Positions 11,972 to 26,460 of a stretch of 64,000 bases of DNA are shown here, piece after piece. A model generated the notes under the pieces. That model ran no database searches and was not told the DNA's origin. It saw only the letters and a program-made list of their open reading frames with translations. Positions within the stretch are counted from its first letter, which is position 1. Each line of letters begins with the position of its first letter. The position numbers and the translations under genes are program-made. The stretch comes from an uncultured Anaerolineales bacterium (GTDB lineage: Bacteria; Chloroflexota; Anaerolineae; B4-G1; SLSP01): NCBI GenBank assembly GCA_964508025.1, contig CAZDSF010000001.1, positions 22,320 through 86,319 on the forward strand. The letters run 5' to 3'.

Positions 11972-14900
11972 TTACGCGATCAGATCTCCCAGCCGCAATT
12001 GCCGGAAGGTCTCATTTTTCAGCAGCAGCCGCAAGGCCCGCAATTCGCGCAGCAGATGGGTGATTTCGCTCAGCGGCAGGCTCACTCGCGCTGCGAGCGC
12101 TTCTGGCGCTGCGAAGAGCAACGCCTCCAGCGGCGTATCGGCAAATACCGCGTAGGTTTTTGCATCCAGCTGCAACGATTCCACAAGTTCCGCCGTGGCC
12201 TTTACCTCCAGCAGCCGTTCGGCGGTGCGGCTATCCAATTCGGGCAGGCGTTCGATGTGCGCCAGCTCGGCGATGGTCTTGACGCCGGCTTCGGCAAACA
12301 AGGCGCCCATCGCAGGGCCAACGCCAGCAATGCTTTCAATGGCCTGCTCGCCCAACTTTGTAACGGGCCTCAAAGTTGTGGGCTGGGGCGCCGGCTTCAT
12401 GATCACGGGAGCGCTGATTTGGCGCGCGCGGTATGGCGCTGCCAGCAGTTCCAGTTCCGGCGTTACGATGGGGTTCGGCAACGGCGGCGGCTCGTAGGTG
12501 ACGTGGAAGCCAGACACGGTGAGCGTTCCGGGTGCTTCGGAGAGGAAATTGAGCGGGACGACGGCGACATCGTCTTGCGTGAGCGAGATCCAGCGTAGGG
12601 CGATGTTCTCCGCGTCCTGCGGTTTGATCCACCGGATCTCGACATGGGTAGCCTGGGGCGGCGCTTCGCTGCGCCACGCGCGGGTGGGGAAATCAGGCCC
12701 ATCGAGGGGGAAGAGGGCCGGCGCGTCCAACGCGCTTTCTCCGCGCAGCCAGTGCAGCTCCACCCGCGCGTGCTGCGCTTCTGGCAGCGCGCTCGTATCG
12801 CCCGGAGGGCCTGTTCTCACGGTCTGGAACCGCAGGGTGTAGCCGGCGCCCCCCTTGATCGCGGCGCGCTGGATGAAGCGCACCTGCTCTGGGGTGCGCT
12901 GTTCCGTCCACCCTACAGGCGCCTGTAACATTTCGGGAGGGAACACGCCGTTGATCAGCCGTTCGCAAGTGGGGGTAAAGGTCGCCGTCCGCACTTCCAG
13001 CGCGCCCGGCGCGGGCTGTTCCAACCGCACCTCAGCTTGTACCGCTTGGGGCGGCGCTGTTATCAGGGTGGTGAGCGCCATGCTGCGATCCTTTTCATTC
13101 TGTGGACGCAGCACGCCTTGCGCCGCTTCGAGCTGTACTTCGCCAGCATCGAACCAGATCACGCGCCAGAGCGCCGCGGTCAATGTCTCCGCCAGGCGAT
13201 GGGGTATCGCCTCCAGGCGCAGCGCGTAGGTGCAACCGCCGCTCACTGCGATGCGCTGCGCCAGGAAGGGCGTCTCGCTGGCGGGCGCGGCGGGTTTTTC
13301 TGCGGTTGCGGCGAAACAGGCCGAAAGCCATTCGGCTGCTTGCGCTGCGCCTTTCGAGCGCTCGGCGACAATTGCGGCGGGCGCTGTTGGCTCAGGGGAC
13401 GGTGCAACCACTACTCTGGAAAAGCCGCTGGGCGGCGGGGTGCTGGTGGGGGCAGGCGCCCTCGCGGCGGCGCTTGCCGCGCGGGTGGCATTTTTCCCTT
13501 CCGGTGGCGCGACTGTCGAAGGCGCGATCAACAGCGTTTGCAACTGCCCGCTTACGGGATTGCGCAGGCGGAGGACGCGATTCGGGTTGCCGTTCCAGTG
13601 TTGCGGCAGCTGGTATCTGCACCAGGTATGGAGATGCGCCGCGCTCGATGGCCCATCCGTCGGCGAGCGGATGATGAGCCGCTTGACGCCGGTCTGCCCT
13701 TCGACTTCCCCATAGCTGGCGACGGATGCCTTCATGGCGTGATTGATCGCAGCGATGACCTCATCGCGGTGGGTGCGCGCCGGTTCCAGGCCCGCGCAGT
13801 GGATGCAGATCGGCTCTCCGTCGTCAATGGCGAGGGTGATGGCGCGCTCGCGGCTCAGATCCAGCACTGCTTCCAGCGCCACTTCGCCCTCCAATTGCGC
13901 CGAGTAGGCTGTGGCATAAGGCGTGATGCTGCGCGCGCCAAAGCCGAAGAGCCGCCACGAGGCGTCATCGTGCCCCGGCAGCGCGAAATCCGCATTGGCG
14001 AGCAGGTTGCCCGCGCCGCAGGGCGAGACCATCGCAGGTGAACTGAGCACTGTATCAAGGGCGGCGCCGAAATCCACGGCAAATTCGATGCGTCCCAGCG
14101 GCGCGAAGGCGTCGAAGCGGACGGCCTGCGCTTCTGCCCCGGCGCCCACTTGCAGCTGCACCGGCACGCTGAAGCGCTGGGGGGTGTGCCGCAGGCGGAA
14201 GCTGGCCGCGCCGCCGCCGTTGACCGCGCGCCACGAGAAACCGCCATCCGTGGAGCGGTGCAGGCCCGGCGCGGCGCCAGCGTCGCTGTGGAGCGCCCAA
14301 TCTGCCTCGCCTTCGAGGCTTTGCAGAACCAGCCAGTAGCGGCGTCCCGGCAGAAAGTGATAGGTGGTGGGGAGCCTGACGTTGCGCCAGCCAGCGTCGC
14401 CGGGCGGCGCGCTTTCCAGGCGCAGCTCGGCGCGGAGCAATACCTCGCCGGAGGGTTTGCTATCGGCGTCGCTCTGGAGCGCCAGCTGCAAGGTTGCCGC
14501 AGCAGCGCAGGTCAGCGGCAGATCTATGCTGCTCGCGGGCGTTTCGTTCGCTGTCTCGAAAGGTTGCGCCAGGCTTTGAGAGGCGGTCACGGGCAGCGCG
14601 CCCACGTCCTGGCGGGCGCCGATTGCGCCCAGGACGATTCGGCTGCTCTCGAAGCTGCCGCGCACGTGACCCTCGGCGCTGACGATGCGCGCGCCGCGCG
14701 GCGCGCGGGCCTGGAGCAGCGCGGCCTGTTCGCCAGCGGCCTGCGTGCTGAGATCGTAGGTCAGCGACGCTTCGGGCAGGTGCGCCGGCAACACGGCCAT
14801 TTTGAGCGTGTACTCCAGAGTCACGGTAATGGCCAGCGCGGCGATGGTATCCGAATGAAAGGTGAACGGCAGCGCGTAGAAGCCGTTTTCGGCGGCGGCG

Positions 14901-15532
14901 GTTTGGAGGAAGGCGTTGAGCACGGCGGCGAAATCTGGCGAGACGGCAGGCCCGGTCAACGCGCCGAGGTGCGTCCAGACCGGCGACAGCGTTCCCACCC
15001 GCGCGCTGATGTTCGTGGGGACGCTGCGCAGCGTGACGCCGCCCAGGCTGATCTTTCCATTTGGGTCCACGAGGCCATTTTCGGTCACGGCGGTGAGTTT
15101 GAGCTTCTCGGCGTTGAGGGGCGGCAGGGTGATCTCGCTTATAGCCGCGTTCAGCGGCAGCAGTAGTGGCAGCTTATCCGGCGCGAACGGGGTCCCATCG
15201 GCGGCGAGGCCCATCCATACGCCGCCTACATCCATCTGGATGCTGGCAAACCCACCGGGATTGCGCGCCGCGCGCAGCGCGTTGAAGCTGCACCGCGCGT
15301 GGAAATCCGCTACCGCCCAGTGCTGGAGGCCGATAGTGGGTGGCTCGCGCGTGAGGCCCCAGTCGCCCGATCCGGCGTCATCGAATGTGACCGGATACAC
15401 GCCGCTGCCGACCGGCGCCAGCGTCGTCGTCGCCTGGGTGATGTGCGCGCCTTCGGGCAGGCTGCGCAGCCACAGGACGAGGTCGCCCTCGAAAGGGGCG
15501 TTCTGCCCCGCAAAGGATTCCTGGAGTCGCAT
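11972..15532 (-). CDS. large distal protein at tail-fibre position (1186 aa) with C-terminal helix-hairpin-helix region
   Basis: Last gene of cluster after baseplate J/I-like genes (P2 H position); internal ~45-aa ...EVIAAINHA...SPTDGP... module shared with upstream baseplate gene; C-terminus ...IESIAGVGPAMGALFAEAGVKTIAELA... fits HhH pattern. Confidence 0.5.
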   Translation of the reverse strand: MRLQESFAGQNAPFEGDLVLWLRSLPEGAHITQATTTLAPVGSGVYPVTFDDAGSGDWGLTREPPTIGLQHWAVADFHARCSFNALRAARNPGGFASIQMDVGGVWMGLAADGTPFAPDKLPLLLPLNAAISEITLPPLNAEKLKLTAVTENGLVDPNGKISLGGVTLRSVPTNISARVGTLSPVWTHLGALTGPAVSPDFAAVLNAFLQTAAAENGFYALPFTFHSDTIAALAITVTLEYTLKMAVLPAHLPEASLTYDLSTQAAGEQAALLQARAPRGARIVSAEGHVRGSFESSRIVLGAIGARQDVGALPVTASQSLAQPFETANETPASSIDLPLTCAAAATLQLALQSDADSKPSGEVLLRAELRLESAPPGDAGWRNVRLPTTYHFLPGRRYWLVLQSLEGEADWALHSDAGAAPGLHRSTDGGFSWRAVNGGGAASFRLRHTPQRFSVPVQLQVGAGAEAQAVRFDAFAPLGRIEFAVDFGAALDTVLSSPAMVSPCGAGNLLANADFALPGHDDASWRLFGFGARSITPYATAYSAQLEGEVALEAVLDLSRERAITLAIDDGEPICIHCAGLEPARTHRDEVIAAINHAMKASVASYGEVEGQTGVKRLIIRSPTDGPSSAAHLHTWCRYQLPQHWNGNPNRVLRLRNPVSGQLQTLLIAPSTVAPPEGKNATRAASAAARAPAPTSTPPPSGFSRVVVAPSPEPTAPAAIVAERSKGAAQAAEWLSACFAATAEKPAAPASETPFLAQRIAVSGGCTYALRLEAIPHRLAETLTAALWRVIWFDAGEVQLEAAQGVLRPQNEKDRSMALTTLITAPPQAVQAEVRLEQPAPGALEVRTATFTPTCERLINGVFPPEMLQAPVGWTEQRTPEQVRFIQRAAIKGGAGYTLRFQTVRTGPPGDTSALPEAQHARVELHWLRGESALDAPALFPLDGPDFPTRAWRSEAPPQATHVEIRWIKPQDAENIALRWISLTQDDVAVVPLNFLSEAPGTLTVSGFHVTYEPPPLPNPIVTPELELLAAPYRARQISAPVIMKPAPQPTTLRPVTKLGEQAIESIAGVGPAMGALFAEAGVKTIAELAHIERLPELDSRTAERLLEVKATAELVESLQLDAKTYAVFADTPLEALLFAAPEALAARVSLPLSEITHLLRELRALRLLLKNETFRQLRLGDLIA

Positions 15533-15676: not shown

Positions 15677-16624
15677 CTAGATGCGTAGGAGAACCATCAA
15701 ATCCACATTTACCACCCGTGGAATGTTCTGTCGCCCGGTGAGGAGTCTTAGCGCGATGGCATCGTAGCTCAATTGCGCCACATCCAACCACCAGGGCACA
15801 TTTCCAGGAACCTCATCATCGCCCGGCAGCCGCCCATACAGCAGGCTGACGGGGCGCATGACCCAGCGGATGTCATCCCACTCATCGTTGACTTTGAGTT
15901 CGGCGACCTTCATCCGCCGCCGCTCATTGATCCAGGGAGAGACGGCGTATTCCATCGGATCCACCCACGGCGGTTTGAAGAAGGCTTGCAGGAAGTCGTT
16001 GTAGACGTCGCCCAGGGTGTCATCGTCCTCCCATTCGACGTGATACTCGTCCAGCATCGCTTCGAAGGGGATGCCCCACGGCGCGCGCACCATGCCGCGA
16101 TCTTCAGTGAAGAGCCGGTCCCGCTCACGTTCCTCGTGGTGGTAGTAGAGATAGAACTTCGTCGGCGGCGCTCCGCCTCCCGTCGCCACCAGCTCCTTGC
16201 GGATTTGTTCCATCTTCTCGCGCTCCTCTTTTTCCAGGAGGTTGAGCGGCGTCCACGGCTGGGTGTTCAGCACCTCCAGCAGTTCGTAGACATCCACCAA
16301 CGGAAAGCGCCCCAACTGGTGATTGAGGACGACGGTTTGCCCCGGACGGATGCGCTTGAAATAGCGCCGGTAGACGGCGCGCCCTTCGTGATTATGGGCC
16401 CTGGGCGCGTAGCGCTCATCGAGCCGCTCGACCCACTCCTTGGGCGTGCGCTTGTCGAATTGATCGGCGTTGTCGGCGCGCGAGACGCCCTCCTGAGTGA
16501 TGCGCGTGCGCAGCGCCTCGCCTTGGGTTTCCATATCCTCCTGGATGCGCTCTTGCATCGTGTTCCAATCCTCAGCGGTGATCAGGTCCCCCGGCTCACG
16601 GCGAATATACGGTTGCCTGGACAT
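15677..16624 (-). CDS. hypothetical acidic, Trp-rich protein inserted between baseplate-I-like and fibre-position genes
   Basis: 315 aa, GGAGAAATAAG RBS; no recognisable domain; ...DLITAEDWNTMQERIQ... N-terminus. Confidence 0.45.
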   Translation of the reverse strand: MSRQPYIRREPGDLITAEDWNTMQERIQEDMETQGEALRTRITQEGVSRADNADQFDKRTPKEWVERLDERYAPRAHNHEGRAVYRRYFKRIRPGQTVVLNHQLGRFPLVDVYELLEVLNTQPWTPLNLLEKEEREKMEQIRKELVATGGGAPPTKFYLYYHHEERERDRLFTEDRGMVRAPWGIPFEAMLDEYHVEWEDDDTLGDVYNDFLQAFFKPPWVDPMEYAVSPWINERRRMKVAELKVNDEWDDIRWVMRPVSLLYGRLPGDDEVPGNVPWWLDVAQLSYDAIALRLLTGRQNIPRVVNVDLMVLLRI

Positions 16625-16740: not shown

Positions 16741-16800
16741 CAATCCCCCTCTCTCCCCATCTCCCCGTCTCCCCGTCTCCCTATCATCCCATCTCCCCAT
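16741..16800. repeat. CTCCCCATCTCCCC tract (G-runs on coding/minus strand), copy 1
   Basis: ctctccccatctccccgtctccccgtctccctatcatcccatctcccc in 160-nt intergenic gap. Confidence 0.6.
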
Positions 16801-19105
16801 CGTCTTCCGCTGGCGCGCGCACCGTTTCACGGGTAACGGCGACGCGGACACCGGCAGCTTTGGCTTGCAGCACGCCGACCGGTCCCGGCTTGAGCAATGC
16901 CGCAGCTTGCAACGGCAGCGTCTCGGCGCCGCCAAGGACGACGCGCCGCGCGTTCTCGAAGCGCCCGCCCATGAAAGCGATGGTCAGCTCGAAGCGGGCC
17001 GGCCCGGCATAGCGCGCGGCGACGGTGATGGCGTTGCCCCACGCGCCGGGCCTCACCGCGCGCAGTTCCACGTAGCCCTCGACGCCTTCCTCGGCGAGAT
17101 AGAGCCGCGCCGCCGAGGTCTCGCTGCCCAGCGTGAGCGCGCGCGGCTTGCGGAAGGGCATGACGACCGGCGCCCACCCCAGCGGCGCGCTCGCTACTTT
17201 CTCCGCGACAACGAGCGCCGAGCGGGCGTTGATCCGCGTCGCCAGATAATCGGCGTCGCTCTCCGGCTCGGCGACGACATCCGGGTAGATTTCGGGCGCA
17301 TCTGCCGGTTTGCTGAAGCGTGCGCTATCGAAGCGCCCGCCAAAACGCGGCGGCAGGTCGGCGGGCAGATGGACGACGAAGGCGCCCCGTTCGTGGGATG
17401 CCCAGCGCACGGTAACGTTGACCAACGCGCCCACCGCTTCACGCGCGGCGAAGACGGTCTGCCCGGCGAAGGCGGGGTCGTCTTCAAGGCGGCTGATATC
17501 GAAAAGCCCCGCCATGCGGCAGACGCCGCCGGTGAAGGCGGTTGCCGGCGCATCGAAGCGCGCCTGATCGAAGCGGCTGCCGCCGCAATCGGCGTAGCGC
17601 CAGCGAGAAACGCCGCGCGGCAGGAACAGTGCGGCGTTGCCGGTCTCGATCTCAGCAGCGAGCGGGAGCGCGTGCAGGTTTTCGGTTGCTACCGGACGCG
17701 CTGCGCCATCGGCGGCGTGAATTTCGGCGCGCAATCCCCCTTCTGCAGCGCGCCACAGGCGCACGCGCTCGCCCGGCTCGAGCACTTCGTTCACGCGCAC
17801 GGCCCAGCCGGTGGCAAAGTTGGCGATCAAGGGGCCGTAAACCCCGCGCGGCGCGGCGATGTCCACTTCTGCAAAAACGCCCGCCGCGCCCTGATTGGCG
17901 AGGCGCAGGCTATCGCCATGGCGCAGGCTGTGCGGCCCGAAGCGCGCCGGTCTGGCGGGATATTCGATGAGCTCGAGATACCGCAGGGGCAGCACCGCGA
18001 TGCGGCTTTCTGGCCCGGCGGTGGGCGATTGCAGCCGCAGCCGGTGATCGGGGGTTTCGGAGGCGACGCCCGGCAGCGCGGCGTTGATGGCCGCGATGAC
18101 TTCATCCAGAAAGGGGCGGTCGGGCGCGGCGCCTGCGACCGTGAGGTCCACGGGCGGCGCGCCGTCAATGGCAAGCCGCAGCAACGCCCGCTGTGAGAGA
18201 TCCACCGGCCCGCGCAGCGATACCGCGCCTTCCAGCGTAGCCCGGCCTGGCAGCGCGCCTTTGGTGATGGTGGGGACCTGTCCCAGCAGGCGTGTGCGGG
18301 CGTCCGCGCCGCTGATGGGCAACCCGATGGCGATGCGCGCGTTCTCCCCCGCCGTGGGCGACGTGAGCGCCAGGAAGCGCCTCTCGTGGATGCTGGCGAT
18401 TTCGGCGCCCGCCTGCGCGTTGATCGCCGCCGTGATCTCGGCGAGCGTTGTGGCGCGCGGACGGGCGCCCGCGCAATCTATTTCCACGGCGGGGCCGGCG
18501 TCTATGGTGAGGCGCAGATAGCGCGCTGTGCTCAGATCCACACTGCGGCTCAGGTCTACGGCGCCGATCACTTGCGCGGGCATTGCCGGCTCGCCGCGCG
18601 CTTCGCGGCAGATGAAGCCGCAGAGCGCCAGCGCCGCCTCATCGGTGATCGCCGCGCGGGTGACGAAACGCCGGGCGTTCTCCTCCGCCGATGCGGTGAG
18701 GGGATCGCTTTTCCGTGTCCACCACGTGTCCATATCGGCGTAGGCGTCGGCAATGTGCAGGTTCAGGGCCTCTGCCGTGACCCGGAGAATGCCTTGGACG
18801 GCGACGGTCCCTTGCAGGAAAGTGCGCACGTACCGCTTGAGATGCTCGCGGAACTCCTCGACGCTTTCATCGGGGCGGGGCGCCAGGCCGTAGAGCGCGG
18901 CGAGCAGCGCCAGGTCGTGGATCTCTTCCTCCTGCCAATCCGCGAGATCCACCCAATGCGCCTGCATCACTGCGGCAAGGCTGTTTTCGGCAGCCTGCAG
19001 CTCGCGCCCAAAAGCAGCGGCGACGGCGTGAAGTGCGGAGGCGACCGGCGCCTGGCGGAAGGTTCCGGGCAGCAGGCTCAGAATGCGCTCGGTTTTGGTG
19101 GGCAT
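16784..19105 (-). CDS. baseplate protein, phage P2 gpI-like N-terminus with repeat-domain C-terminal extension
   Basis: Start at internal Met (MPTKTERILSLLPGTFRQ...) overlapping upstream stop; LLPG..R motif characteristic of tail protein I family; two ~45-aa IAAINA...SPTAG modules. Confidence 0.6.
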   Translation of the reverse strand: MPTKTERILSLLPGTFRQAPVASALHAVAAAFGRELQAAENSLAAVMQAHWVDLADWQEEEIHDLALLAALYGLAPRPDESVEEFREHLKRYVRTFLQGTVAVQGILRVTAEALNLHIADAYADMDTWWTRKSDPLTASAEENARRFVTRAAITDEAALALCGFICREARGEPAMPAQVIGAVDLSRSVDLSTARYLRLTIDAGPAVEIDCAGARPRATTLAEITAAINAQAGAEIASIHERRFLALTSPTAGENARIAIGLPISGADARTRLLGQVPTITKGALPGRATLEGAVSLRGPVDLSQRALLRLAIDGAPPVDLTVAGAAPDRPFLDEVIAAINAALPGVASETPDHRLRLQSPTAGPESRIAVLPLRYLELIEYPARPARFGPHSLRHGDSLRLANQGAAGVFAEVDIAAPRGVYGPLIANFATGWAVRVNEVLEPGERVRLWRAAEGGLRAEIHAADGAARPVATENLHALPLAAEIETGNAALFLPRGVSRWRYADCGGSRFDQARFDAPATAFTGGVCRMAGLFDISRLEDDPAFAGQTVFAAREAVGALVNVTVRWASHERGAFVVHLPADLPPRFGGRFDSARFSKPADAPEIYPDVVAEPESDADYLATRINARSALVVAEKVASAPLGWAPVVMPFRKPRALTLGSETSAARLYLAEEGVEGYVELRAVRPGAWGNAITVAARYAGPARFELTIAFMGGRFENARRVVLGGAETLPLQAAALLKPGPVGVLQAKAAGVRVAVTRETVRAPAEDDGEMG

Positions 19106-19106
19106 T

Positions 19107-20693
19107 TCAGCTCGCCTCCTCTTCCAGGGCGATGTCGGCGGCATCCATGTCGAGGACGATCCACCACGGTTGCCCCTGGATCGCGGCGATGACGGTGAAG
19201 TCGCCGCTTTCGATGTCTGCATCGGCAGCGCGCTGCCCGGATGCGCCGACCACCAGACCCCGATCGGGGATGCGGCTGCCGGTCGGGGCCGGCGCCATCG
19301 CGGTCTCCGTCAGCCGTTGGGCGAGGGCGGCGCGCAGGGCTGCTTCATCGCCGGAGGGGGCGGCGCGCACGGCTGCGAGCACGGCATCTACCAGGGCCGT
19401 CGGCCCCGGCGCATCGAGGTCGGAGCGCCAGGTCATCACGTCGGCGAAGCGCACCGCTTTCACATCGGGCGTTTTCTTCAGTTCAGCGAGCAGCGCCTGC
19501 CCTTTGACCTCCTCACCGCTGCTCAGGTTGTCTATATAATCCTGTATGGCGGCGATGATGGCCTGTTGCACTTTGGACTTGCCGGCAGGGGGCAGCGCGC
19601 TCTTGAGTTGCACGCTCAGCCGGGGCTTGAAGAAGATGTAACGGGCGACGAGGGTGGTCTGTACGCCAGCAGCGCGCGTCTGCTCGATGGCGGCGCGCAG
19701 GCTGGGGAAACGCTCTGGTTCGCAGCCGACCAGCAGCGTGAGGCTGCCTGGCGGCGTCTGTTGCGCGGGGACGCTGTTGGGATCCCACACTTCGACCAGC
19801 TCGCAGCGCGCTTCGGCGATGACGCGGGCCAGGGCGGCAAGCGTGCCCTTGCCCAGGGCGCGCAGTGCGGCTTTGGCGCGCAGCCGCAGCTCGGCGTCGC
19901 TTTCATCCTCGGCGCCTAGGAACGTCGCCTCCAGGTTGGCGACGCGGCTGATACCGGCGATGGGTTGCACCAGTTGGTTGATGGCGCCGGCATCCACTTT
20001 GCCGGCAGCGCCTTTGAAAGCTTCAGCGGCGCGAATCGGCGCCTCTACGCGAACCTGGCCCCGTTGCAGCGTGCGCGGTTGGGTGGTCTGAAAGCGCACG
20101 TCTTTGGCGGTACGCACGGCGGTACCCTCGGCGATGATGAGGTTGCCTTCGACGGCGGGGTCCCGGAAGAAAGTGACCTGCCCGATGGCGTAGTCTTTCG
20201 TCTGCCGCGTCAGCCCCAGAATGGCGACGACCAAATCAAGGGATTTGCCCGCGGCCGTCTCCACAAAGCCCGCCAGGTAGGCCTGGTTGATCTGCTCGTA
20301 AACCACGGCGATCTCCCGCGCGATAGCCTCGCCGAGCGTGCGGGTGACGCTGCCGATGTTGATGTCGCTGAGCGGCGAGCGGCTGTCGCGCTGGAAATAA
20401 TCCACATAGAAAAGCGTCTCATCGTCGGGCCAGTTCCCGCCCACCTGCCACACCACGGCGTTGTCACCCTCGCTGAACAGGAAATCGCTGCCCTTCTGGA
20501 AGGTGTGCGGCGCTTTCTTGTGCACGCCGGTGATGCCGCGCACGTCGCGCGCCTGTTGGGCGAGCGGATAGAGATCCTGTTTGAGATCGAAGCGCAGGGG
20601 TTCGTTGACCACACCGCCGACGATGGCGGTGAGAATGTCATCCACGATGTCTTGATAGGGGCGATGGATCAGCGTTACAGTTTCCTCATTCAT
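19107..20693 (-). CDS. baseplate J-like protein (T4 gp6 / P2 gpJ homolog)
   Basis: 528 aa, N-terminus MNEETVTLIHRPYQDIVDDILTAIVGG typical of Baseplate_J family; start overlaps upstream stop (ATGA). Confidence 0.7.
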   Translation of the reverse strand: MNEETVTLIHRPYQDIVDDILTAIVGGVVNEPLRFDLKQDLYPLAQQARDVRGITGVHKKAPHTFQKGSDFLFSEGDNAVVWQVGGNWPDDETLFYVDYFQRDSRSPLSDINIGSVTRTLGEAIAREIAVVYEQINQAYLAGFVETAAGKSLDLVVAILGLTRQTKDYAIGQVTFFRDPAVEGNLIIAEGTAVRTAKDVRFQTTQPRTLQRGQVRVEAPIRAAEAFKGAAGKVDAGAINQLVQPIAGISRVANLEATFLGAEDESDAELRLRAKAALRALGKGTLAALARVIAEARCELVEVWDPNSVPAQQTPPGSLTLLVGCEPERFPSLRAAIEQTRAAGVQTTLVARYIFFKPRLSVQLKSALPPAGKSKVQQAIIAAIQDYIDNLSSGEEVKGQALLAELKKTPDVKAVRFADVMTWRSDLDAPGPTALVDAVLAAVRAAPSGDEAALRAALAQRLTETAMAPAPTGSRIPDRGLVVGASGQRAADADIESGDFTVIAAIQGQPWWIVLDMDAADIALEEEAS

Positions 20694-21160
20694 GGCGTTG
20701 CGCCTCCTTCCAGAAAGAAGGGAAAGACAAGGTTCAGCGGCTCGTCGCTGTCAATGGGCGTCAGGTGGATGTCAATATCTATGCAGGTGGGGTCGGTGCG
20801 ATTGGGGGTCACATTGACGGCGAGGACCTTTTTGACGCGGGGTTCCTGCGCCAGGGCTTGCAGGACGAAGAGTTTGGCGCGGTTGCGGTTGCGTTGGGTG
20901 TTGCGTTCGCCGATCAGTTCTGTGAGGCGGCAGCCGTAGGTGGGATGTCCCAGCGCGGCGAGTTCGCCCACGGGGGTGAGAAAGCGCAGCAGCAGGGCTT
21001 GCTTCAAGTTATCCGCGCCGCTGACGGTATCCAAATCCACCAGTCCAGCGCCAGAAGACGTGCGCGTGGCGAGATCGGCGCCCCGGTCGCGGCTCTTTTG
21101 CCGCGTCAGATCGCCCAGCAGGCGTAAATCGGTACCCCAACGTGCTTGTGTGTCGGCCAT
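20690..21160 (-). CDS. gp25/GPW-like baseplate wedge protein
   Basis: 156 aa; C-terminal ...VNVTPNRTDPTCIDIDIHLTPIDSDEPLNLVF matches gp25-like lysozyme-fold family; position after PAAR and before J. Confidence 0.65.
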   Translation of the reverse strand: MADTQARWGTDLRLLGDLTRQKSRDRGADLATRTSSGAGLVDLDTVSGADNLKQALLLRFLTPVGELAALGHPTYGCRLTELIGERNTQRNRNRAKLFVLQALAQEPRVKKVLAVNVTPNRTDPTCIDIDIHLTPIDSDEPLNLVFPFFLEGGATP

Positions 21161-21357: not shown

Positions 21358-21690
21358 TCACGGCGGCCACTGGTCGGTGATGAAGGGCGCCGCCGGCGGG
21401 CCGAGGATCACGAGGATTCCTGGCGGGCTGGGAATGCGATCGCCCATCCGCACCAGGCCCTTCCCGGAGACGGTGACGCCCGCGCTTCCCAATGGGCCGA
21501 TCACCAGCAGGTAAGGAACGCCTGATACGGAATTGATCATCTGGCACAGGGAGCCGGTGGTCGCCAGCGGCATTCCGTTGGTCGTGATGAAGGGCGGAAA
21601 GATGGCGACCAGGATGCCCATATCCGGCGGCCCCGCTGCGCCGGGCGTCACCATCACTGTTGCTCCAATCGTGACCGGCATTCCTGGCAT
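21358..21690 (-). CDS. PAAR-domain spike-tip protein
   Basis: 110 aa Gly/Pro-rich with PAAR-type motifs (...GPPAAPF..., ...PSPPG...), immediately downstream of gpV-like spike. Confidence 0.7.
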   Translation of the reverse strand: MPGMPVTIGATVMVTPGAAGPPDMGILVAIFPPFITTNGMPLATTGSLCQMINSVSGVPYLLVIGPLGSAGVTVSGKGLVRMGDRIPSPPGILVILGPPAAPFITDQWPP

Positions 21691-21714: not shown

Positions 21715-22521
21715 TTATCCCGGCGCGAACGAGGTCAGCCCCTTGATGCTGACATTGACGCCCTGGACGGCGACCGAAAGTCCGCCTTCGACTTTGGCGC
21801 CCAGGCTGCCTTTGACCGTGGTTTCCATGCCGCCTTCCAGCGTAGCGTTCATCTGCGCTTTGATGTTGATGTTCATGCCCTCTAGCGTGAGATCGCGGGT
21901 CGCCTTGAGCGTCATCGCGCCCGAAGCTTCGATCGTCACATCGCCGTCCTGGTTCATCGTGATTTTGGTGCTGCCGGCGACAACGGCCACGCGCCCGCCG
22001 CTGCCATCTGGTTGATCCAGCAACATCTCCGTTTGCCCGGCGGTAGCGCGGACTGCGCCATCGGTGATGCGCACGGTGATTTTAGGCGCCATCTCGATGA
22101 GGATTTCGCGGGGCGGGAAGGCGTCAGGGTGGTTGCGAATGGCGGCCTGGATGCTCTTGTCATCCGCTGCGGCGAGGGGCAGCCGGAAGATGACCTCATC
22201 GGGCCGGTTGAGCGGCGGACGATCCGCGTCGTTGTAGAGCCGCCCGATGATGAGCGGCTGGTTGACATCGCCGTGCTGGAAAGCCAGCAATACCAGGTCG
22301 CCGATGTTGGGGATGGCGGCTGTGCCGATGTGCCCCGTAGCGACCGGCGCGCGCTTGAGCAGCAGGTCGCTGGCCGGTAGACGCACATCGCAGGCGTAAT
22401 TGTCGTCATCGCTGGCGTCGCTGTGCGGGTAGAGGGCCTCGACGATGCCGAGTTCCGCGATCCGCAGGTTGCGCAGCTCGTGACGCACGATCTCTTGAAT
22501 AGCGCTGATAATGGTGGACAT
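21715..22521 (-). CDS. baseplate spike protein (phage gpV / gp5-like)
   Basis: 268 aa; N-terminal OB-like region then beta-helical repeats (..VKGSLGAKVEGGLSVAVQGVNVSIKG..). Confidence 0.7.
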   Translation of the reverse strand: MSTIISAIQEIVRHELRNLRIAELGIVEALYPHSDASDDDNYACDVRLPASDLLLKRAPVATGHIGTAAIPNIGDLVLLAFQHGDVNQPLIIGRLYNDADRPPLNRPDEVIFRLPLAAADDKSIQAAIRNHPDAFPPREILIEMAPKITVRITDGAVRATAGQTEMLLDQPDGSGGRVAVVAGSTKITMNQDGDVTIEASGAMTLKATRDLTLEGMNINIKAQMNATLEGGMETTVKGSLGAKVEGGLSVAVQGVNVSIKGLTSFAPG

Positions 22522-22570: not shown

Positions 22571-22612
22571 TATGACTCATGACTTTTTGACTTATGACTC
22601 CTGACTCATCGC
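22571..22612. repeat. TGACTCATGAC-unit repeat (family also at 56640-56700)
   Basis: tatgactcatgactttttgacttatgactcctgactcatc. Confidence 0.5.
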
Positions 22613-23593
22613 TTTCTCAAATCCAATCTCCGTGATGAAGCCGCCTGCTTTGGTGAGCCGGTGGGTGACGCTGCGCACCTGGTAGGCGGCGTTATGGGCG
22701 GCGGTAGGCAGGGCTTCGAGGCGGATGGCATCGCCCAATTGCACCTGCGGCGCGCCGGGAACGCGCATTTGCCCGCGCAGCGCGCGTCGCTGGAGCCGGC
22801 GCTGGAGGGCCTCGGCGGCGGTCTGTGCGGCTTCGACGGTGCGCAGGGCCGGGCGTTCCAACAAATGGCGAGGCGTTCCAGAACCGGCGCTGCCTTTCAA
22901 AGCGCCGAAGTCCTTGGCGAGCCAGGCCCAGGCGTCGCCGCTGCGTCCTGGCCCCTGACCCCAGGCTTCGACGCTGGCGGCAGCCGGCGGGCCTTCCCAG
23001 ATCCGCAGGGCGAGGATCTGCTCGCTGTAGGTGAAGGTGTGGACGGCGCGCCCATTTGCAAACTGTTTGAATACCAGCTCGCCTGCCGGGTTGGTGTAGA
23101 GATCGCAGCCGCAGAGCGCCGCCAGCTCGCGCAGATGGCTGTAGAAATTGCGTCGCCCGTCAATCACGTAGGCGGGAAACGCGATGCCCTCCTCGGCTTC
23201 GGCGACGGCGACGCCGGCCCGATCGGCCAGCGCGCGCACAATTTCGCCCGCGCGTTGGTTCTCGAAGGTCTCATTCGCGAAATGGCGCAGCAGCCGATAC
23301 GCCGGGCTGAGTCCCATGGCCCGCAAGGTGAGCAATCCCGGCTCCACCGCGACGAGCGCGCCGCTGAACACCTGCGTCAGCGCGTCGGCGCCGGCGTAGC
23401 CCAGGGCCACGGTGAGAGCATCCTCCAGCGCCGGGCGAAAGCGGCCCACCTGCCCCAGCTCCAGGGTGACGCTGTCGGCGGGGGTGTCCATAGCGCGCTG
23501 AACGACCAGCTCCACCACCGTGCTGGCTTGCGGTTCGGAAGCGGCGTCAATGACCCGTTGCTCGAATGTGATTCTGTAGGTGGGCGTCAGCAT
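22592..23593 (-). CDS. phage late control gene D-like baseplate hub protein (gpD/gp27-like)
   Basis: Start at internal Met (MLTPTYRITFEQ...) overlapping upstream stop; ~333 aa; typical gpD N-terminus and size. Confidence 0.7.
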   Translation of the reverse strand: MLTPTYRITFEQRVIDAASEPQASTVVELVVQRAMDTPADSVTLELGQVGRFRPALEDALTVALGYAGADALTQVFSGALVAVEPGLLTLRAMGLSPAYRLLRHFANETFENQRAGEIVRALADRAGVAVAEAEEGIAFPAYVIDGRRNFYSHLRELAALCGCDLYTNPAGELVFKQFANGRAVHTFTYSEQILALRIWEGPPAAASVEAWGQGPGRSGDAWAWLAKDFGALKGSAGSGTPRHLLERPALRTVEAAQTAAEALQRRLQRRALRGQMRVPGAPQVQLGDAIRLEALPTAAHNAAYQVRSVTHRLTKAGGFITEIGFEKAMSQES

Positions 23594-23598
23594 AGCCT

Positions 23599-25446: not shown

Positions 25447-25863
25447 TTATGACTTGAGCGTGTTCAGTTGGCCCACGATGTCGTCAATCAGGCTCAGAAT
25501 GTCGGCTTTGACGGTATCCAGCGACGGCAGCCCGGTGACGACATCCGCTGCGCCGAGCACTTCGTCAATCGTGGCGGCCTCGTCGGGGAGCAGGGCTTTG
25601 GCCGCTTCGAGGAAGGCTTTCACCTTTTGCGTGAACTGCGTCACCTCGGTTAGTCCGGGTACCGCGCCGACGTTGATGTTCTGAATTTCCGTCTTGAGTT
25701 TGTTCAGCAGGTCAATCAGTTTGTCAATCAGGGTGATGATCTGCGGCACCATCGCCGACAGCGCCTGTACTGCGGGCTTGATCGTGGGCACATTGGCGGT
25801 CAGGAAATCCTTGAATTCCTGAAGGACATCTTTCAATTGTTGGTAGACATTCGTTCCTGCCAT
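25447..25863 (-). CDS. small alpha-helical protein, lower GC than neighbours
   Basis: 138 aa from ATG 25863 (GAGGTGA RBS); K/I/L-rich, predicted coiled/helical; no match to known tail component. Confidence 0.4.
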   Translation of the reverse strand: MAGTNVYQQLKDVLQEFKDFLTANVPTIKPAVQALSAMVPQIITLIDKLIDLLNKLKTEIQNINVGAVPGLTEVTQFTQKVKAFLEAAKALLPDEAATIDEVLGAADVVTGLPSLDTVKADILSLIDDIVGQLNTLKS

Positions 25864-25907
25864 GGTTTCACCTCGGTTATAAGTCAAAAGCAAGTCTCCC
25901 CATCTCC

Positions 25908-26450
25908 CTACTGCCCCAATCCTTGACGGATGGCCTGGAGTTGCGGCAGAATGGCGCTGAGCGCGGCGACGAAGCGTTCCAGCCCCGTCGCAAAGGTGGT
26001 GAGCGCCTCCAGCCCGTTGACGAGATTGTCCATGAGCGCCGCGGCGTCGCCGAGGATGTCCGCGTCGAGCAGGGAGGGATCCTCCGGCTCGACCGGCTCG
26101 ATGTATTCGCGCAGGGTGCAGACGTAGGCATACCGCTCCGGTTTGCCGGCGAGCTCCTGCCAGCGCAGGTCATCAATGACCAGTTGCTCCAGTCCGGCAT
26201 CGGCGACGATGTCGGCGATGAAGCTGACCGGTTTTCCGGCGCGAAACTTTTGCTCCAATGCTTCGACGAACGCGAGCGCCTCAGTCCCGGCAGCGACGCC
26301 CCACAGGCTGAGGCGCGCGGGGCGGCGTCCCAGGTTTTGAAGTACGCTGCCATCTTTACCCGGCGGTTTGTGCTCGGCGAGCACCCGCCGTTCGAGCAGG
26401 CTGATTTCCTGTACCTGCGGCAGTTCGAGATCGTCTAACATGGGCCGCAT
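25908..26450 (-). CDS. tail protein paralogous to N-terminal domain of the 613-aa OmpA/PGB protein (tube-initiator-like candidate)
   Basis: MRPMLDDLELPQVQEI...GKPERYAYVCTLREY aligns over ~130 aa with MRPMLDDFELQQVQQL...GKPERFEYAITLREY. Confidence 0.5.
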   Translation of the reverse strand: MRPMLDDLELPQVQEISLLERRVLAEHKPPGKDGSVLQNLGRRPARLSLWGVAAGTEALAFVEALEQKFRAGKPVSFIADIVADAGLEQLVIDDLRWQELAGKPERYAYVCTLREYIEPVEPEDPSLLDADILGDAAALMDNLVNGLEALTTFATGLERFVAALSAILPQLQAIRQGLGQ

Positions 26451-26460
26451 GGGTAAATCC

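What the first reader, a model, noticed from the sequence alone, without database searches (positions are those of the whole stretch)
11972..15532. Fibre-position 1186-aa protein ends in helix-hairpin-helix (nucleic-acid-binding type) motifs
By synteny (after J and I) this should be the receptor-binding fibre. Its last ~120 residues instead match the HhH pattern (IESIAGVGPAMGALFAEAGVKTIAELA, plus a second weaker repeat) seen in ComEA, RuvA and polymerase domains. Either the distal tip binds extracellular DNA or polyanionic matrix, or this protein is a cargo/effector with DNA-targeting activity rather than a fibre.
Basis: partly seen in the sequence, partly recalled or inferred. Interest (0 to 1): 0.6.

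Follow-up and report, generated by a model that had tools for sequence, protein, structure and literature searches.

The report
Tail-like injector fibre with HhH tip
The last gene of a head-less, phage-tail-like injection machine encodes a large sugar-binding-type outer protein that ends, on a flexible tether, in a genuine helix-hairpin-helix domain of the kind that usually grips DNA, and the same tip recurs in hundreds of such machines across many phyla without having been discussed in any paper I could search.

Summary

The context is not a phage. The gene closes a roughly 19.6-kb, 16-gene Mu-like contractile-tail cluster with no head, packaging, lysis or integration genes. Host genes flank it, and its synteny is conserved in at least 18 genomes from at least six phyla.

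The body of the protein is a chain of beta-sandwich, CBM-like domains. I found no nuclease motif and no relative in phage genome collections.

Of 100 family members with a C-terminal tail, 82 carry an HhH domain. Other members carry, at the same position, Arg-rich or transmembrane helices (cyanobacteria), a GH25 lysozyme or TPR repeats. The same extended HhH domain is also inserted in Afp11-type baseplate proteins of canonical eCIS.

My best reading (confidence about 0.45) is a flexibly tethered DNA- or polyanion-binding adhesion or anchoring module on the peripheral baseplate or receptor-binding protein. The main rival is protein-protein docking or array formation. The effector or nuclease reading is not supported. 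The ligand remains untested.

The parts
11972..15532 (-). 1186-aa ORF (p1186). It is the last gene of the contractile tail-like cluster and a peripheral baseplate or receptor-binding ('fibre-position') protein.
   Evidence: ORF list and translation. At least 183 homologues. Conserved last position in 18 loci.
11975..12346 (-). C-terminal extended HhH domain, aa 1063-1186: a first (HhH)2-like unit followed by a degenerate, glycine-less second unit.
12260..12340 (-).
   Evidence: Located. Aligned to the Pol IV thumb HhH and to the family's canonical HhH.
12347..12490 (-). Pro/Ala-rich flexible linker, aa 1015-1062, that tethers the HhH domain.
   Evidence: pLDDT below 50 for aa 1028-1054 in the full-length model. 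Variable length and composition in homologues.
12491..13285 (-). Two jelly-roll, CBM-like beta-sandwich domains, aa 750-1014, ending in the family-wide motif ...LTVS.F.V.Y.
   Evidence: AF2 secondary structure. Foldseek matches to CBM22, CBM4, the Vip3 and Cry C-terminal domains and phi812 baseplate chains. Conserved block used as the anchor for the tail census.
13298..13498 (-). Ala/Pro-rich region of low or intermediate model confidence, aa 679-745, including a predicted helix.
   Evidence: pLDDT below 50 for aa 679-718 and 742-745; helix predicted at aa 719-739. Sequence shown.
13634..13990 (-). Alpha/beta repeat module of about 110 aa, aa 515-633. The upstream 812-aa protein family also carries it, with up to 8 tandem copies in homologues.
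   Evidence: phmmer domain hits.
13943..15532 (-). Conserved N-terminal beta-sandwich region, aa 1-530, presumed to attach to the baseplate. It includes a choice-of-anchor-R-like domain at aa 315-456 (nt 14165-14590).
   Evidence: The most conserved part of alignment A1. NCBIfam NF041539 E 1.2e-9. AF2 pLDDT mostly above 90.
15677..16624 (-). 315-aa conserved protein of unknown function, located between the 812-aa protein and p1186.
   Evidence: Syntenic homologues in all 18 loci; duplicated in the Anaerolineae and Chloroflexia loci. No family hit.
16784..19222 (-). 812-aa wedge-extension protein in the position of gpI/Mu gp48. Homologues are 1000-1700 aa long.
   Evidence: phrog_1160 baseplate protein E 0.0017. 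Synteny and repeat structure.
19107..20693 (-). Baseplate J-like wedge protein.
   Evidence: Pfam PF04865 E 1e-17; phrog_6 E 1.6e-39.
20690..21160 (-). gp25/W-like sheath initiator.
   Evidence: Pfam PF04965 E 1.8e-6.
21358..21690 (-). 110-aa protein, weakly PAAR-like.
   Evidence: Pfam PAAR_motif E 0.046, sub-threshold. Conserved in the loci.
21715..22521 (-). Central spike, gpV/VgrG-type OB domain.
   Evidence: Pfam PF04717 E 1.4e-6.
22592..23740 (-). Mu gp44-like baseplate hub protein.
   Evidence: Pfam Gp44-like_2nd E 9e-4. PDB 1wru Mu gp44 E 2e-4.
23599..25440 (-). 613-aa hub protein with a gpU/Mu gp43-like N-terminus plus OmpA-like and PG_binding_1 domains.
   Evidence: Pfam. The Geoalkalibacter orthologue is 1652 aa and has the same two domains.
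25447..27729 (-). Three genes of 138-148, 180 and 422 aa, in the tape-measure or assembly region.
   Evidence: Weak tape-measure PHROG hits for the 148-aa ORF. Independent gene calls of 422, 180 and 138 aa.
27726..28785 (-). Tail assembly chaperone-like protein (156 aa) and putative tube protein (185-190 aa).
   Evidence: Phage_TAC_7 E 4e-4. Position directly after the sheath; weak DUF2001 tube hit, E 0.11.
28782..30464 (-). Contractile sheath protein.
   Evidence: Pfam Phage_sheath_1C E 1.9e-13. Nearest solved relative is the phi812 sheath, E 1.6e-9. 60-73% identical homologues in several phyla.
30537..31589 (-). 350-aa conserved first gene of the cluster, function unknown.
   Evidence: Homologues next to the cluster in L004, L014, L020, L025 and L026. 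No family hit.

Best explanation
What it is. The ORF encodes the outermost baseplate or receptor-binding protein of a head-less, Mu-like contractile tail-like particle (a CIS- or tailocin-type element), not of a phage.

How it is built. The conserved N-terminal 530 residues (beta-sandwiches) are presumed to attach it to the wedge, next to the J-like, 812-aa and 315-aa proteins. A chain of CBM-like jelly-rolls provides glycan-type recognition. A Pro/Ala-rich flexible linker of about 48 residues then carries a 124-residue extended (HhH)2 domain.

Proposed mechanism. The tethered domain works as a generic, low-affinity, multivalent 'grappling' module for a ubiquitous phosphodiester polyanion, most probably double-stranded DNA. 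Several copies per particle would together hold the baseplate on DNA-coated surfaces or the eDNA matrix. Alternatively they would hold it on the producer's own nucleoid before release. The CBM-like domains would supply specificity.

Shown: the gene context, the domain architecture, the HhH fold, family-wide conservation of the HhH tip, its interchange with other anchoring modules, and its recurrence in other CIS baseplate proteins.

Inferred: the copy number, attachment through the N-terminus, the ligand (DNA or polyanion), and whether binding happens outside or inside the producer cell.
For: System identity:
- Minus-strand cluster 11972-31589 running sheath, tube, chaperone, tape-measure region, Mu gp43/gp44-like hubs, spike, PAAR-like, gp25, J, 812 aa, 315 aa, p1186.
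- The flanks are host genes: a Liv-type ABC transporter on one side and two-component and Roadblock genes on the other.
- No tRNA in the window.
- The same order occurs in 18 genomes of Chloroflexota, Cyanobacteria, Proteobacteria, Acidobacteriota, Vulcanimicrobiota and Methanotrichaceae. In cultured Geoalkalibacter halelectricus the start of the cluster is bounded by Mla and ppk genes.
- No p1186 relative in phage genomes or in the IMG/VR scan.

Architecture. The full-length AF2 model has pLDDT 85.8, is all-beta to aa 1014, has a disordered linker, and ends in a helical domain. Matches are to CBM, Cry, Vip3 and phi812-baseplate domains.

HhH fold.

The HhH tip is the family norm. Among 115 members, 46 carry the long form and 36 the canonical RadA-NTD-like form, which is 82 of the 100 that have a tail.

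Pointers to a nucleic-acid or polyanion ligand:
- Canonical tails match RadA/Rad51 NTD (E 3e-8), topoisomerase V HhH repeats, Pol X and UvrC.
- A Cys4 zinc-ribbon-like motif lies directly upstream in 24 members.
- Cyanobacterial members replace the HhH with Arg/Lys-rich helices of net +11 to +16.
- Seven conserved basic positions, four of them on the last long helix.
- The tip is conserved across phyla with very different envelopes, which favours a universal ligand.

CIS-specific role. The same 120-130-aa domain occurs as one or two insertions in Afp11-type Baseplate_J proteins, one of them in a canonical eCIS locus, and at the C-terminus of a roughly 315-aa family with a weak tail-fibre-network Pfam hit. 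HHH_5 is also listed at the C-termini of DUF6519-type eCIS fibres in the supplement of PMC12923769.
Against: - No binding data exist.
- The domain is acidic: net -5 and pI 5.05 here, with a family median of net -2 and pI 5.4. This is unlike basic DNA-clamping HhH domains such as ComEA (from my own knowledge, not tested here).
- The window's own copy lacks the Arg that follows the first hairpin in most relatives (GVGPAM versus GVGxRF). It also lacks the Gly of the second hairpin.
- A GH25 lysozyme, TPR repeats or a transmembrane helix at the same position in some relatives show that the slot is not DNA-specific.
- One Methanotrichaceae clade has no tail at all.
- A monomer model cannot show the oligomeric state or where the domain sits on the particle.
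Confidence: 0.45

Rival explanations
1. Protein-protein module. The HhH/SAM-like domain docks onto another protein rather than onto DNA. It could link neighbouring fibres or baseplates (a tail-fibre network, fibre stowing, or arrays of particles). It could also bind a cellular partner protein that controls firing.
For: - The net charge is acidic.
- The same domain is inserted inside Afp11-type baseplate proteins and fused to a small protein with a weak 'tail fiber network component' hit. All of these are baseplate-periphery proteins.
- The most conserved residues are hydrophobic, plus a few charged pairs.
- The window's copy has degenerate hairpins.
Against: - No partner has been identified.
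- The long flexible tether and the interchange with Arg-rich tails, a transmembrane helix and a GH25 lysozyme fit binding to bulk cellular material better than a fixed structural contact.
- The canonical tails are closest in sequence to DNA-binding HhH domains and are often preceded by a zinc-ribbon-like motif.
Confidence: 0.3
2. Intracellular anchoring. As in the thylakoid-anchored CIS of Anabaena, the C-terminal module of this protein family fixes assembled particles inside the producer. HhH versions would bind the nucleoid, or a membrane protein. Cyanobacterial versions would bind membranes through amphipathic or transmembrane helices. This overlaps with the best explanation if the ligand is DNA.
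For: - Precedent: tCIS Cis13 has a C-terminal transmembrane helix and Cis12 an amphipathic helix, and these anchor the particle (PMC8894136).
- Cyanobacterial homologues end in a transmembrane helix (P0055, KD 2.58) or in strongly basic amphipathic helices.
- Cys-rich zinc-ribbon-like motifs suit a reducing cytoplasm.
- No lysis genes in the cluster.
Against: - The body consists of CBM-like and choice-of-anchor-R-type domains, and beta-propellers in relatives. These are typical of extracellular ligand binding.
- GH25 lysozyme variants and the OmpA/PG-binding hub point to action on cell walls.
- No transmembrane helix in any protein of this window's cluster.
- Nothing is known about localisation.
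Confidence: 0.15
3. DNA-targeting cargo or effector. The protein would be a toxin delivered by the machine, and the HhH domain would guide a nuclease or other DNA-modifying activity in the target.
For: Only the HhH domain itself and one source's automatic label for some relatives, 'predicted flap endonuclease-1-like 5' DNA nuclease'. That label reflects the HhH module.
Against: - No nuclease or enzyme family hit in the whole protein, nor in four body fragments at E<=1.
- The body is beta-sandwich and CBM-like.
- 1186 aa is far too large for the tube lumen (inference).
- The strictly conserved terminal position after the wedge genes, and the conserved N-terminal 530 aa, are those of a structural baseplate or fibre protein.
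- Relatives swap the middle region for beta-propellers and the tip for lysozyme or TPR, which is the behaviour of a receptor-binding protein.
Confidence: 0.03
4. Chance resemblance or degenerate relic. The HhH-like stretch would have no function of its own.
For: - The window's own Pfam score is below the gathering score.
- Its hairpins are degenerate compared with relatives.
Against: - High-confidence fold.
- 82 of 100 family tails carry an HhH domain.
- 347 representative clusters carry the long form, 143 of them at E<=1e-10.
- Conserved across phyla and across different carrier proteins.
Confidence: 0.04

Closest known systems
eCIS tail fibres (Afp13/Pvc13 and the eBAP1-5 fibre groups of Nachmias et al. 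2026, PMC12923769)
   Same: - Last structural gene after the baseplate wedge genes of a head-less contractile particle.
- Conserved N-terminal attachment region, followed by swappable binding domains.
- The paper's supplementary Pfam table lists HHH_5 at the C-terminus of some DUF6519-type fibres.
   Different: - This cluster lacks the eCIS hallmark genes: PF06841 tube, Pvc16_N cap and AAA+ ATPase (compare locus L021).
- The protein has no DUF6519 or other known fibre N-terminal domain.
- The model shows a globular beta-sandwich chain rather than a fibrous shaft.
- The HhH tip is not mentioned in that paper's main text.
Thylakoid-anchored CIS of Anabaena: Cis13 fibre and Cis12 extension (Weiss et al. 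2022, PMC8894136)
   Same: - A peripheral baseplate or fibre protein carries a C-terminal anchoring element on an extension.
- Cyanobacterial members of the present family likewise end in a transmembrane helix or in basic amphipathic helices.
   Different: - tCIS belongs to the Afp/PVC lineage.
- I detected no sequence relationship to solved CIS proteins.
- The element here is an HhH domain, not a membrane helix.
- Localisation is unknown.
RadA/Rad51 N-terminal (HhH)2 domain, and other HHH_5-type domains (topoisomerase V repeats, NusA AR2, Pol X, UvrC, ComEA)
   Same: - The family's canonical tails match the RadA NTD over the full 57 residues at E 3e-8.
   Different: - It is attached to a structural protein of a tail-like particle.
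- It is extended by a second, glycine-less unit to about 124 aa.
- It is acidic.
- Its ligand has not been tested.
Phage Mu / P2-type myovirus tail and baseplate, and R-type tailocins
   Same: - Gene order: sheath, tube, chaperone, tape measure, gp43/gp44-like hubs, spike, gp25, J, then a fibre-position gene.
- Head-less like tailocins.
   Different: - No lysis cassette or regulator was recognised.
- Spread across at least six phyla, with 60-73% identical sheaths.
- The sheath is nearest to phi812-type sheaths.
- The fibre-position protein is unrelated to Mu S or P2 H fibres.

Membership tests
Helix-hairpin-helix domain, HHH_5 / (HhH)2 fold | Sequence match to Pfam PF14520 at or above the gathering score (27 bits). 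| tested here: not met
   17.7 bits on the whole protein and 22.4 bits on the C-terminal fragment. Many family relatives do carry a precomputed PF14520 hit.
Helix-hairpin-helix domain, HHH_5 / (HhH)2 fold | Two anti-parallel helices joined by a G-h-G-type hairpin, paired into a compact five-helix (HhH)2 unit. | tested here: met
   - AF2 pLDDT 90, with helices at fragment residues 34-42, 48-53 and 62-80.
- The first hairpin, GVG, is present. The second hairpin lacks Gly in this protein but has it in most relatives.
- hhalign to canonical tails 94.9%.
Helix-hairpin-helix domain, HHH_5 / (HhH)2 fold | Non-sequence-specific binding of the DNA backbone. | not testable with these tools
   Only indirect indications: for it; against it.
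Phage or CIS tail fibre / receptor-binding protein | Encoded directly after the baseplate wedge genes of a contractile tail module. | tested here: met
   Order is gp25, J, 812 aa, 315 aa, p1186. It is the last gene of the module here and in 18 loci.
Phage or CIS tail fibre / receptor-binding protein | Conserved N-terminal attachment region plus variable distal binding domains. | tested here: met
   - The N-terminal 44-56% is conserved.
- Middle regions vary (jelly-rolls, YVTN beta-propellers, TPR).
- The tips vary.
Phage or CIS tail fibre / receptor-binding protein | Trimeric fibrous shaft, or homology to a characterised fibre. | tested here: not met
   - The monomer model is a chain of globular beta-sandwiches.
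- No homologue in phage genomes.
- PDB and BFVD matches are at domain level only, with TM 0.06-0.13.
- The oligomeric state itself could not be tested.
Afp/PVC-type extracellular contractile injection system (eCIS) | Core genes: gp19-type tube (PF06841), Afp15-type AAA+ ATPase, Afp16/Pvc16 cap. | tested here: not met
   None found in the cluster or elsewhere in the window. All three are present in the comparison locus L021. No solved eCIS protein matches the sheath, J or hub by phmmer.
Prophage (Mu-like myovirus) | Head, portal, terminase, lysis and integration or transposition genes next to the tail module. | tested here: not met
   - Host genes start within 100-350 bp of both ends of the cluster.
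- No tRNA in the window.
- In Geoalkalibacter, host genes likewise bound the start of the cluster.
- No relative found in the IMG/VR scan.
R-type tailocin | Head-less contractile tail cluster with its own lysis cassette, confined to related strains. | tested here: inconclusive
   - Head-less: met.
- No lysis genes were recognised.
- The distribution spans at least six phyla.
- Release and killing have not been tested.
Nuclease or DNA-targeting effector | A recognisable catalytic domain or motif. | tested here: not met
   No hit in Pfam, NCBIfam or PHROGs apart from choice_anch_R and HHH_5. The four body fragments give nothing at E<=1.

The most novel reading that the evidence does not exclude
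The extended, roughly 125-aa HhH domain would be a dedicated module of contractile injection systems that tethers the particle to DNA. The DNA could be the eDNA matrix or DNA-coated cells outside the producer, or the producer's nucleoid inside it. At least two unrelated CIS lineages would share the module: this Mu-like, ATPase-less lineage, and canonical Afp/PVC-type eCIS, where the domain sits in Afp11-type baseplate proteins and on fibre tips. DNA would then be a previously unrecognised anchoring or targeting ligand for phage-tail-like machines. The window's cluster would represent an undescribed CIS lineage that is widely exchanged between phyla.
Probability: 0.3. Interest if true: 0.8.

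Novelty: new variant of a known kind. Interest (0 to 1): 0.6.

Why it matters
**Why the outermost proteins matter.** Contractile injection systems are being engineered as programmable protein-delivery devices. Their outermost proteins decide where they bind or where they are anchored.

**What a DNA ligand would mean.** A conserved, flexibly tethered HhH domain sits on 82% of the tails in this family. It also occurs in baseplate proteins of canonical eCIS. This points to a common ligand that the field has not discussed.

If the ligand is DNA, these particles would be retained on eDNA-rich biofilms, granules and mats, which are the habitats of the Anaerolineae, filamentous cyanobacteria and Methanothrix that carry the cluster. 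Alternatively they would be parked on the nucleoid. Either would be a new principle of targeting or anchoring.

**What a protein ligand would mean.** If the domain is instead a protein-protein connector, it would be a new element of the tail-fibre network that triggers firing.

**A second point.** The finding also brings to light a head-less, Mu-like tail cluster without the eCIS hallmark genes. Its sheaths are 60-73% identical across several phyla, and it is present in cultured Geoalkalibacter, which makes experiments feasible.

Tried and rejected
**Searches that found nothing**
- phmmer of the C-terminal 168 aa against PDB sequences gave only a marginal hit to the haloarchaeal eL32 HhH extension (E 3.6). 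Profiles were needed.
- tblastn of p1186 against 50,697 phage genomes: no match.
- Family pattern scan of IMG/VR: no relative.
- phmmer of the 812-aa protein against PDB: nothing meaningful.
- Pfam at E<=1 on four body fragments of p1186, and on the 315-aa, 350-aa and 422-aa proteins: nothing.
- Literature. No paper holds both 'contractile injection system' and 'helix-hairpin-helix'. None links Geoalkalibacter with a tail sheath. None links tail fibres with HhH or eDNA binding.

**Tool failures**
- The search for related loci with the full-length alignment A1 failed because no stretch was conserved enough. It worked with the 103-aa block A3.
- Foldseek against afdb50 was unavailable.

**Hypotheses tested and dropped**
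- That the 315-aa neighbour is related to the roughly 315-aa HhH-bearing family: no similarity.
- That the flanks of the short contigs L022-L024 resemble the window or L021 genes: no hits. I recognised a tail-fibre-like C-terminus in L022 and a DUF4157-like N-terminus in L023 only by eye.
- That the loss of the tail tracks archaeal hosts: rejected. P0042 (Methanothrix) is 76-78% identical to P0044 and P0056, which carry the long-form HhH tail (truncated in P0056). Only one Methanotrichaceae clade is truly tail-less.
- That the Roseiflexus/Streptomyces-type cytoplasmic CIS (lineage IId, PMC12998442) is the same system: not supported, because the eCIS core genes are absent here.

Full report
**1. 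The observation**

The coordinates 11972..15532 hold one ATG-to-stop ORF of 1186 aa. It lies on the minus strand; the plus-strand frame is full of stops. The quoted peptide IESIAGVGPAMGALFAEAGVKTIAELA is at aa 1065-1091, nt 12260-12340.

Taken alone, the match to Pfam HHH_5 is sub-threshold. It scores 17.7 bits (E 0.005) in the whole protein and 22.4 bits (E 1.8e-4) in the isolated C-terminus, against a 27-bit cut-off. A single-sequence search of PDB found nothing significant. The sequence signal alone would therefore not be convincing.

**2. The HhH domain is real**

I aligned the C-terminal about 147 aa with 31 homologous tails (A2). AlphaFold2 on that alignment gave a confident model: mean pLDDT 90, with 114 of 147 residues at 90 or above.

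- RAD51C, RAD51D and XRCC3 N-terminal domains
- the HhH thumbs of Rev1, Pol eta, Pol kappa and Dpo4
- NusA AR domains, the RNA polymerase alpha CTD, DisA and Pol X
- below these, the structurally related SAM domains

The family profile hits the HhH thumb of mycobacterial Pol IV at E 0.0016.

Many relatives end in a shorter, canonical domain instead. An alignment of 27 such tails (A4) matches the RadA/Rad51 N-terminal (HhH)2 domain over its full length at E 3e-8. It also matches topoisomerase V repeats, NusA AR2, haloarchaeal L32e, Pol X and UvrC. The long form aligns to the canonical form over the first HhH with hhalign probability 94.9% and E 4.6e-8.

It is conserved across the long-form members.

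**3. What surrounds it**

The ORF is the last gene of a minus-strand module spanning 11972-31589. In order, the genes are:
- a conserved 350-aa unknown
- sheath
- putative tube
- assembly-chaperone-like protein
- three genes in the tape-measure region
- a gpU/Mu gp43-like hub that also carries OmpA-like and PG_binding_1 domains
- a Mu gp44-like hub
- a gpV-type spike
- a weakly PAAR-like 110-aa protein
- gp25
- Baseplate_J
- an 812-aa protein
- a 315-aa protein
- the ORF itself

These assignments rest. Independent gene calls on other contigs agree.

The plus-strand genes to the left (1-11890) are hydrolases, a thiolase and a Liv-type ABC transporter. They converge on the ORF across a hairpin terminator. 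To the right lie two-component, Roadblock and small-GTPase genes, and beyond them ordinary metabolic and regulatory genes.

There is no capsid, portal, terminase, integrase or recognisable lysis gene, and no tRNA in the window. The cluster has a higher G+C content (0.615-0.69, mostly 0.64 or above) than the DNA on either side (0.57-0.63).

The 'J then I then fibre' reasoning holds for J and for the position. The 812-aa protein could not be shown to be gpI-like: it has only a PHROG 'baseplate protein' hit at E 0.0017 and nothing in PDB. A further gene also separates it from the ORF.

**4. It is not a phage, and not a canonical eCIS**

- The protein has no relative in 50,697 phage genomes. A pattern-based scan of IMG/VR found none either.
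- The sheath finds phage sheaths only at 32% identity or less, over no more than 43% of its length. Its nearest solved relative is the phi812 sheath (E 1.6e-9), and the hub's is Mu gp44. No solved Afp, PVC, AlgoCIS, tCIS or T6SS protein is matched by phmmer.
- The eCIS hallmark genes are absent: gp19-type tube PF06841, Pvc16_N cap and AAA+ ATPase. All three are present in a genuine eCIS locus that I fetched for comparison (L021).

The cluster is nevertheless widespread. The segment gp44, V, 110 aa, gp25, J, large wedge protein, 315 aa, p1186 is syntenic in 18 genomes. These come from Chloroflexota, Cyanobacteria, Proteobacteria, Acidobacteriota, Vulcanimicrobiota and Methanotrichaceae.

Sheath homologues that are 60-73% identical occur in Anaerolineae, Chromatiales, Calditrichia, Acidobacteriota and cultured Geoalkalibacter species. 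In the complete G. halelectricus genome, the cluster starts right after Mla and polyphosphate-kinase genes.

I conclude that this is a domesticated, horizontally mobile, head-less contractile tail-like system. The searchable literature did not yield a description of it. The Roseiflexus/Streptomyces lineage IId CIS is of the Afp type and so appears to be a different system.

**5. Anatomy of the protein**

With a 79-sequence alignment, the full-length model reached mean pLDDT 85.8 and pTM 0.70. It divides as follows:
- aa 1-1014 are almost entirely beta.
- aa 679-718 (also 742-745) and aa 1028-1054 are low-confidence linkers.
- aa 1063-1186 form the helical domain.

Foldseek against PDB matched domain arrays: Cry protoxin C-terminal regions, phi812 baseplate chains, tandem CBM22, Vip3 C-terminal CBM-like domains and CBM4. 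TM-scores were about 0.1, meaning domain-level rather than global similarity. BFVD gave the same picture, with phage tail and minor structural proteins carrying CBM-cenC, FN3 and BIG2 domains.

NCBIfam recognises a choice-of-anchor-R domain at aa 315-456. Residues 515-633 are a module of about 110 aa that recurs in up to eight tandem copies in homologues of the upstream 812-aa protein. No other family, and no enzyme, is detected in the whole protein or in four fragments at E<=1.

This architecture is that of a modular receptor-binding or peripheral baseplate protein. It is not that of a trimeric fibre, and not that of a nuclease effector.

**6. The tip across the family**

At least 183 homologues were found. 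Their N-terminal 44-56% is conserved. The middle varies between jelly-rolls, YVTN beta-propellers and TPR repeats.

I anchored on the last conserved beta-sandwich and classified what follows in 115 members:

| C-terminal module | Members |
|---|---|
| Long HhH domain | 46 |
| Canonical HHH_5 (two of these with two copies) | 36 |
| Something else | 18 |
| Fewer than 25 residues (several are contig-end truncations) | 15 |

So 82 of the 100 tails contain an HhH domain. Twenty-four tails carry a Cys4 zinc-ribbon-like motif, which sits just upstream of the HhH in the 19 that also have one.

The 'something else' group is informative. Cyanobacterial members have long Pro/Ser/Thr-rich linkers. These end in a transmembrane helix (P0055, Kyte-Doolittle 2.58) or in Arg/Lys-rich amphipathic helices with net +11 to +16 in the last 45 residues. 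Two members end in a GH25 muramidase, and two in TPR repeats. A Promineifilum homologue adds what looks like a glycosyltransferase after its HhH (by eye). One Methanotrichaceae clade has no tail.

The C-terminal slot is therefore a swappable module held on a flexible tether, and HhH is its default occupant across phyla with very different cell envelopes.

**7. The same domain elsewhere**

A profile of the long form, searched against 1.84 billion representative proteins, found 347 clusters at E<=1e-3 and 143 at E<=1e-10. Apart from p1186-type proteins, these include the following.

(a) Afp11/TIGR02243-type Baseplate_J proteins of about 1050-1190 aa, in which the domain is inserted once or twice. 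The pairwise E-values to the window's tail are 2e-6 and 1e-5. One of them lies in a canonical eCIS locus with a gp19-type tube, Pvc16_N, an AAA+ ATPase, a spike and gp25.

(b) A family of about 310-345 aa that carries the domain at its C-terminus. One member's N-terminus weakly matches the Pfam 'baseplate wedge 3 tail fiber network component' (E 0.0015). The neighbouring genes look, by eye, like a tail fibre and a DUF4157-type protein.

(c) A 720-aa protein with three tandem copies that also match DUF4332.

Independently, the supplementary Pfam table of the published eCIS fibre catalogue lists HHH_5 24 times in the stored (truncated) copy. The two entries I examined are C-terminal hits on DUF6519-type fibres. 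The paper's main text never mentions the domain. No paper in the library holds both 'contractile injection system' and 'helix-hairpin-helix'.

The HhH tip is thus a recurrent feature of CIS baseplate peripheries in at least two lineages, and I found no discussion of it.

**8. How it most likely works**

I commit to the following, with confidence about 0.45. The protein is the outermost baseplate or receptor-binding component. Its CBM-like domains give specificity. The tethered HhH domain is a generic, low-affinity, multivalent binder of a phosphodiester polyanion, most probably DNA. It would hold particles on eDNA-rich matrix or DNA-coated cells, or on the nucleoid before release.

In favour:
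- kinship of the canonical tails with DNA-binding HhH domains
- the adjacent zinc-ribbon-like motif
- replacement by strongly basic tails in cyanobacteria
- seven conserved basic positions, four of them (R1162, R1165, R1168, K1172) on one helix
- conservation across phyla, which argues for a universal ligand

Against:
- The domain is acidic: net -5 and pI 5.05 here, family median -2 and 5.4.
- The window's copy has lost the Arg after the first hairpin and the Gly of the second hairpin.
- The fold also serves protein-protein recognition, as in NusA AR2, the alpha CTD and SAM domains.

The main rival (about 0.3) is a protein-protein connector within the tail-fibre network or between particles. 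The domain's insertion into J-type baseplate proteins fits this well.

Intracellular anchoring, by analogy with tCIS Cis12 and Cis13, is a variant of either reading (about 0.15). I cannot exclude it, and no protein of this cluster has a transmembrane helix.

The effector or nuclease idea (about 0.03) and the chance or relic idea (about 0.04) are disfavoured.

**9. Comparison with what is known, and novelty**

Functionally, the closest things are modular eCIS tail fibres and the anchoring extensions of tCIS. In fold, the closest is the RadA/Rad51-type (HhH)2 domain. In gene order, it is Mu/P2-type tails and R-type tailocins.

The protein meets the positional and modular criteria of a receptor-binding protein. 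It does not meet the criterion of homology to a characterised fibre. The system fails the eCIS core-gene test and the prophage test. The tailocin test is inconclusive.

I rate it a new variant of a known kind: a CIS peripheral protein with an undiscussed, conserved HhH tip, in a cluster type for which I could find no description.

**10. Limits**

- The source organism was not identified. The closest named relatives are Chloroflexi and Anaerolineae MAGs.
- All structure is predicted and monomeric.
- Copy number, position on the particle, ligand and cellular localisation are all inferred.
- afdb50 was unavailable.
- The tail census covers the 120 best homologues only.
- I did not check the last cluster gene of Geoalkalibacter.

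Noticed in passing
window 23599-25440 (-): The central hub protein combines a gpU/Mu gp43-like N-terminus with OmpA-like and PG_binding_1 peptidoglycan-binding domains. The Geoalkalibacter orthologue (L020 15113-20071) is 1652 aa and has the same two domains. A peptidoglycan-binding hub in a contractile particle is unusual. It bears on whether the machine acts on, or is anchored to, a cell wall.
   Followed up: partly
window 13634-13990 (-) and 16784-19222 (-); loci L001-L019, roughly positions 2600-8600: A module of about 110 aa (aa 515-633 of the ORF, motif RIDCAG..PARxxxEIVxAIN) is shared with the upstream 812-aa protein family. Homologues of that protein carry up to eight tandem copies and reach 1000-1700 aa. 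The window's copy is the shortest seen.
   Followed up: partly
L021 10001-13465 (protein P0263); also P0265 and P0354: Afp11/TIGR02243-type Baseplate_J proteins carry one or two internal copies of the same extended HhH domain. P0263 lies in a canonical eCIS locus with a gp19-type tube, Pvc16_N and an AAA+ ATPase.
   Followed up: partly
homologues P0045 (Myxacorys; L002 9497-13120), P0043, P0051, P0055, P0065: Instead of an HhH, cyanobacterial or cyanobacterial-like family members have long Pro/Ser/Thr-rich linkers. These end in Arg/Lys-rich amphipathic helices (net +11 to +16) or in a transmembrane helix. This recalls the thylakoid-anchoring fibre of Anabaena tCIS. Only P0045 has a confirmed cyanobacterial source.
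   Followed up: partly
L018 1569-6572 (Promineifilum sp.): This homologue continues past its HhH domain into a region of about 230 aa that looks like a family-2 glycosyltransferase (…IIIDDGEDS…). I judged this by eye only.
   Followed up: no
homologues P0083 and P0074: Two family members end in a GH25 muramidase (PF01183) in place of the HhH domain, that is, a tethered lysozyme on the same protein.
   Followed up: no
window 30537-31589 (-): The 350-aa ORF on the minus strand, not the overlapping 236-aa plus-strand ORF, is the real first gene of the cluster. It is conserved next to the sheath in L020, L025 and L026, and near the module in L004 and L014. It has no family hit.
   Followed up: partly
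window 12000-30000 versus the flanks: The cluster is more G+C-rich (0.615-0.69, mostly 0.64 or above) than the DNA on either side (0.57-0.63). This is consistent with acquisition by horizontal transfer, and sheaths are 60-73% identical across phyla.
   Followed up: partly
window 1769-2149 (+): A 126-aa four-helix-bundle protein of the '23S rRNA intervening sequence protein' family (E 7.5e-36), with a weaker bAvd-like match. It lies between two alpha/beta hydrolase genes, and no reverse transcriptase was seen nearby.
   Followed up: no
window 31936-39150 (+): A signalling cluster next to the tail module: a hybrid histidine kinase, a small Ras/Arf-like GTPase, a DUF4388-Roadblock/LC7 protein, a response regulator fused to Roadblock, and a HisKA_3 kinase (an MglA/MglB-like arrangement). 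Whether it regulates the tail cluster is unknown.
   Followed up: no
window 59289-62750 (+): A 1153-aa STAND-type protein with Trans_reg_C and BTAD domains, a NACHT/NB-ARC NTPase and TPR repeats.
   Followed up: no
window 19107-19222 (-): The listed ORFs for the J-like protein and the 812-aa protein overlap by 116 nt. The 812-aa gene probably starts at a downstream start codon.
   Followed up: no
window 11924-11949: An 11-bp G+C-rich hairpin followed by a T-run lies in the 81-bp gap between the convergent ABC-permease gene and the ORF. It probably acts as a terminator.
   Followed up: partly
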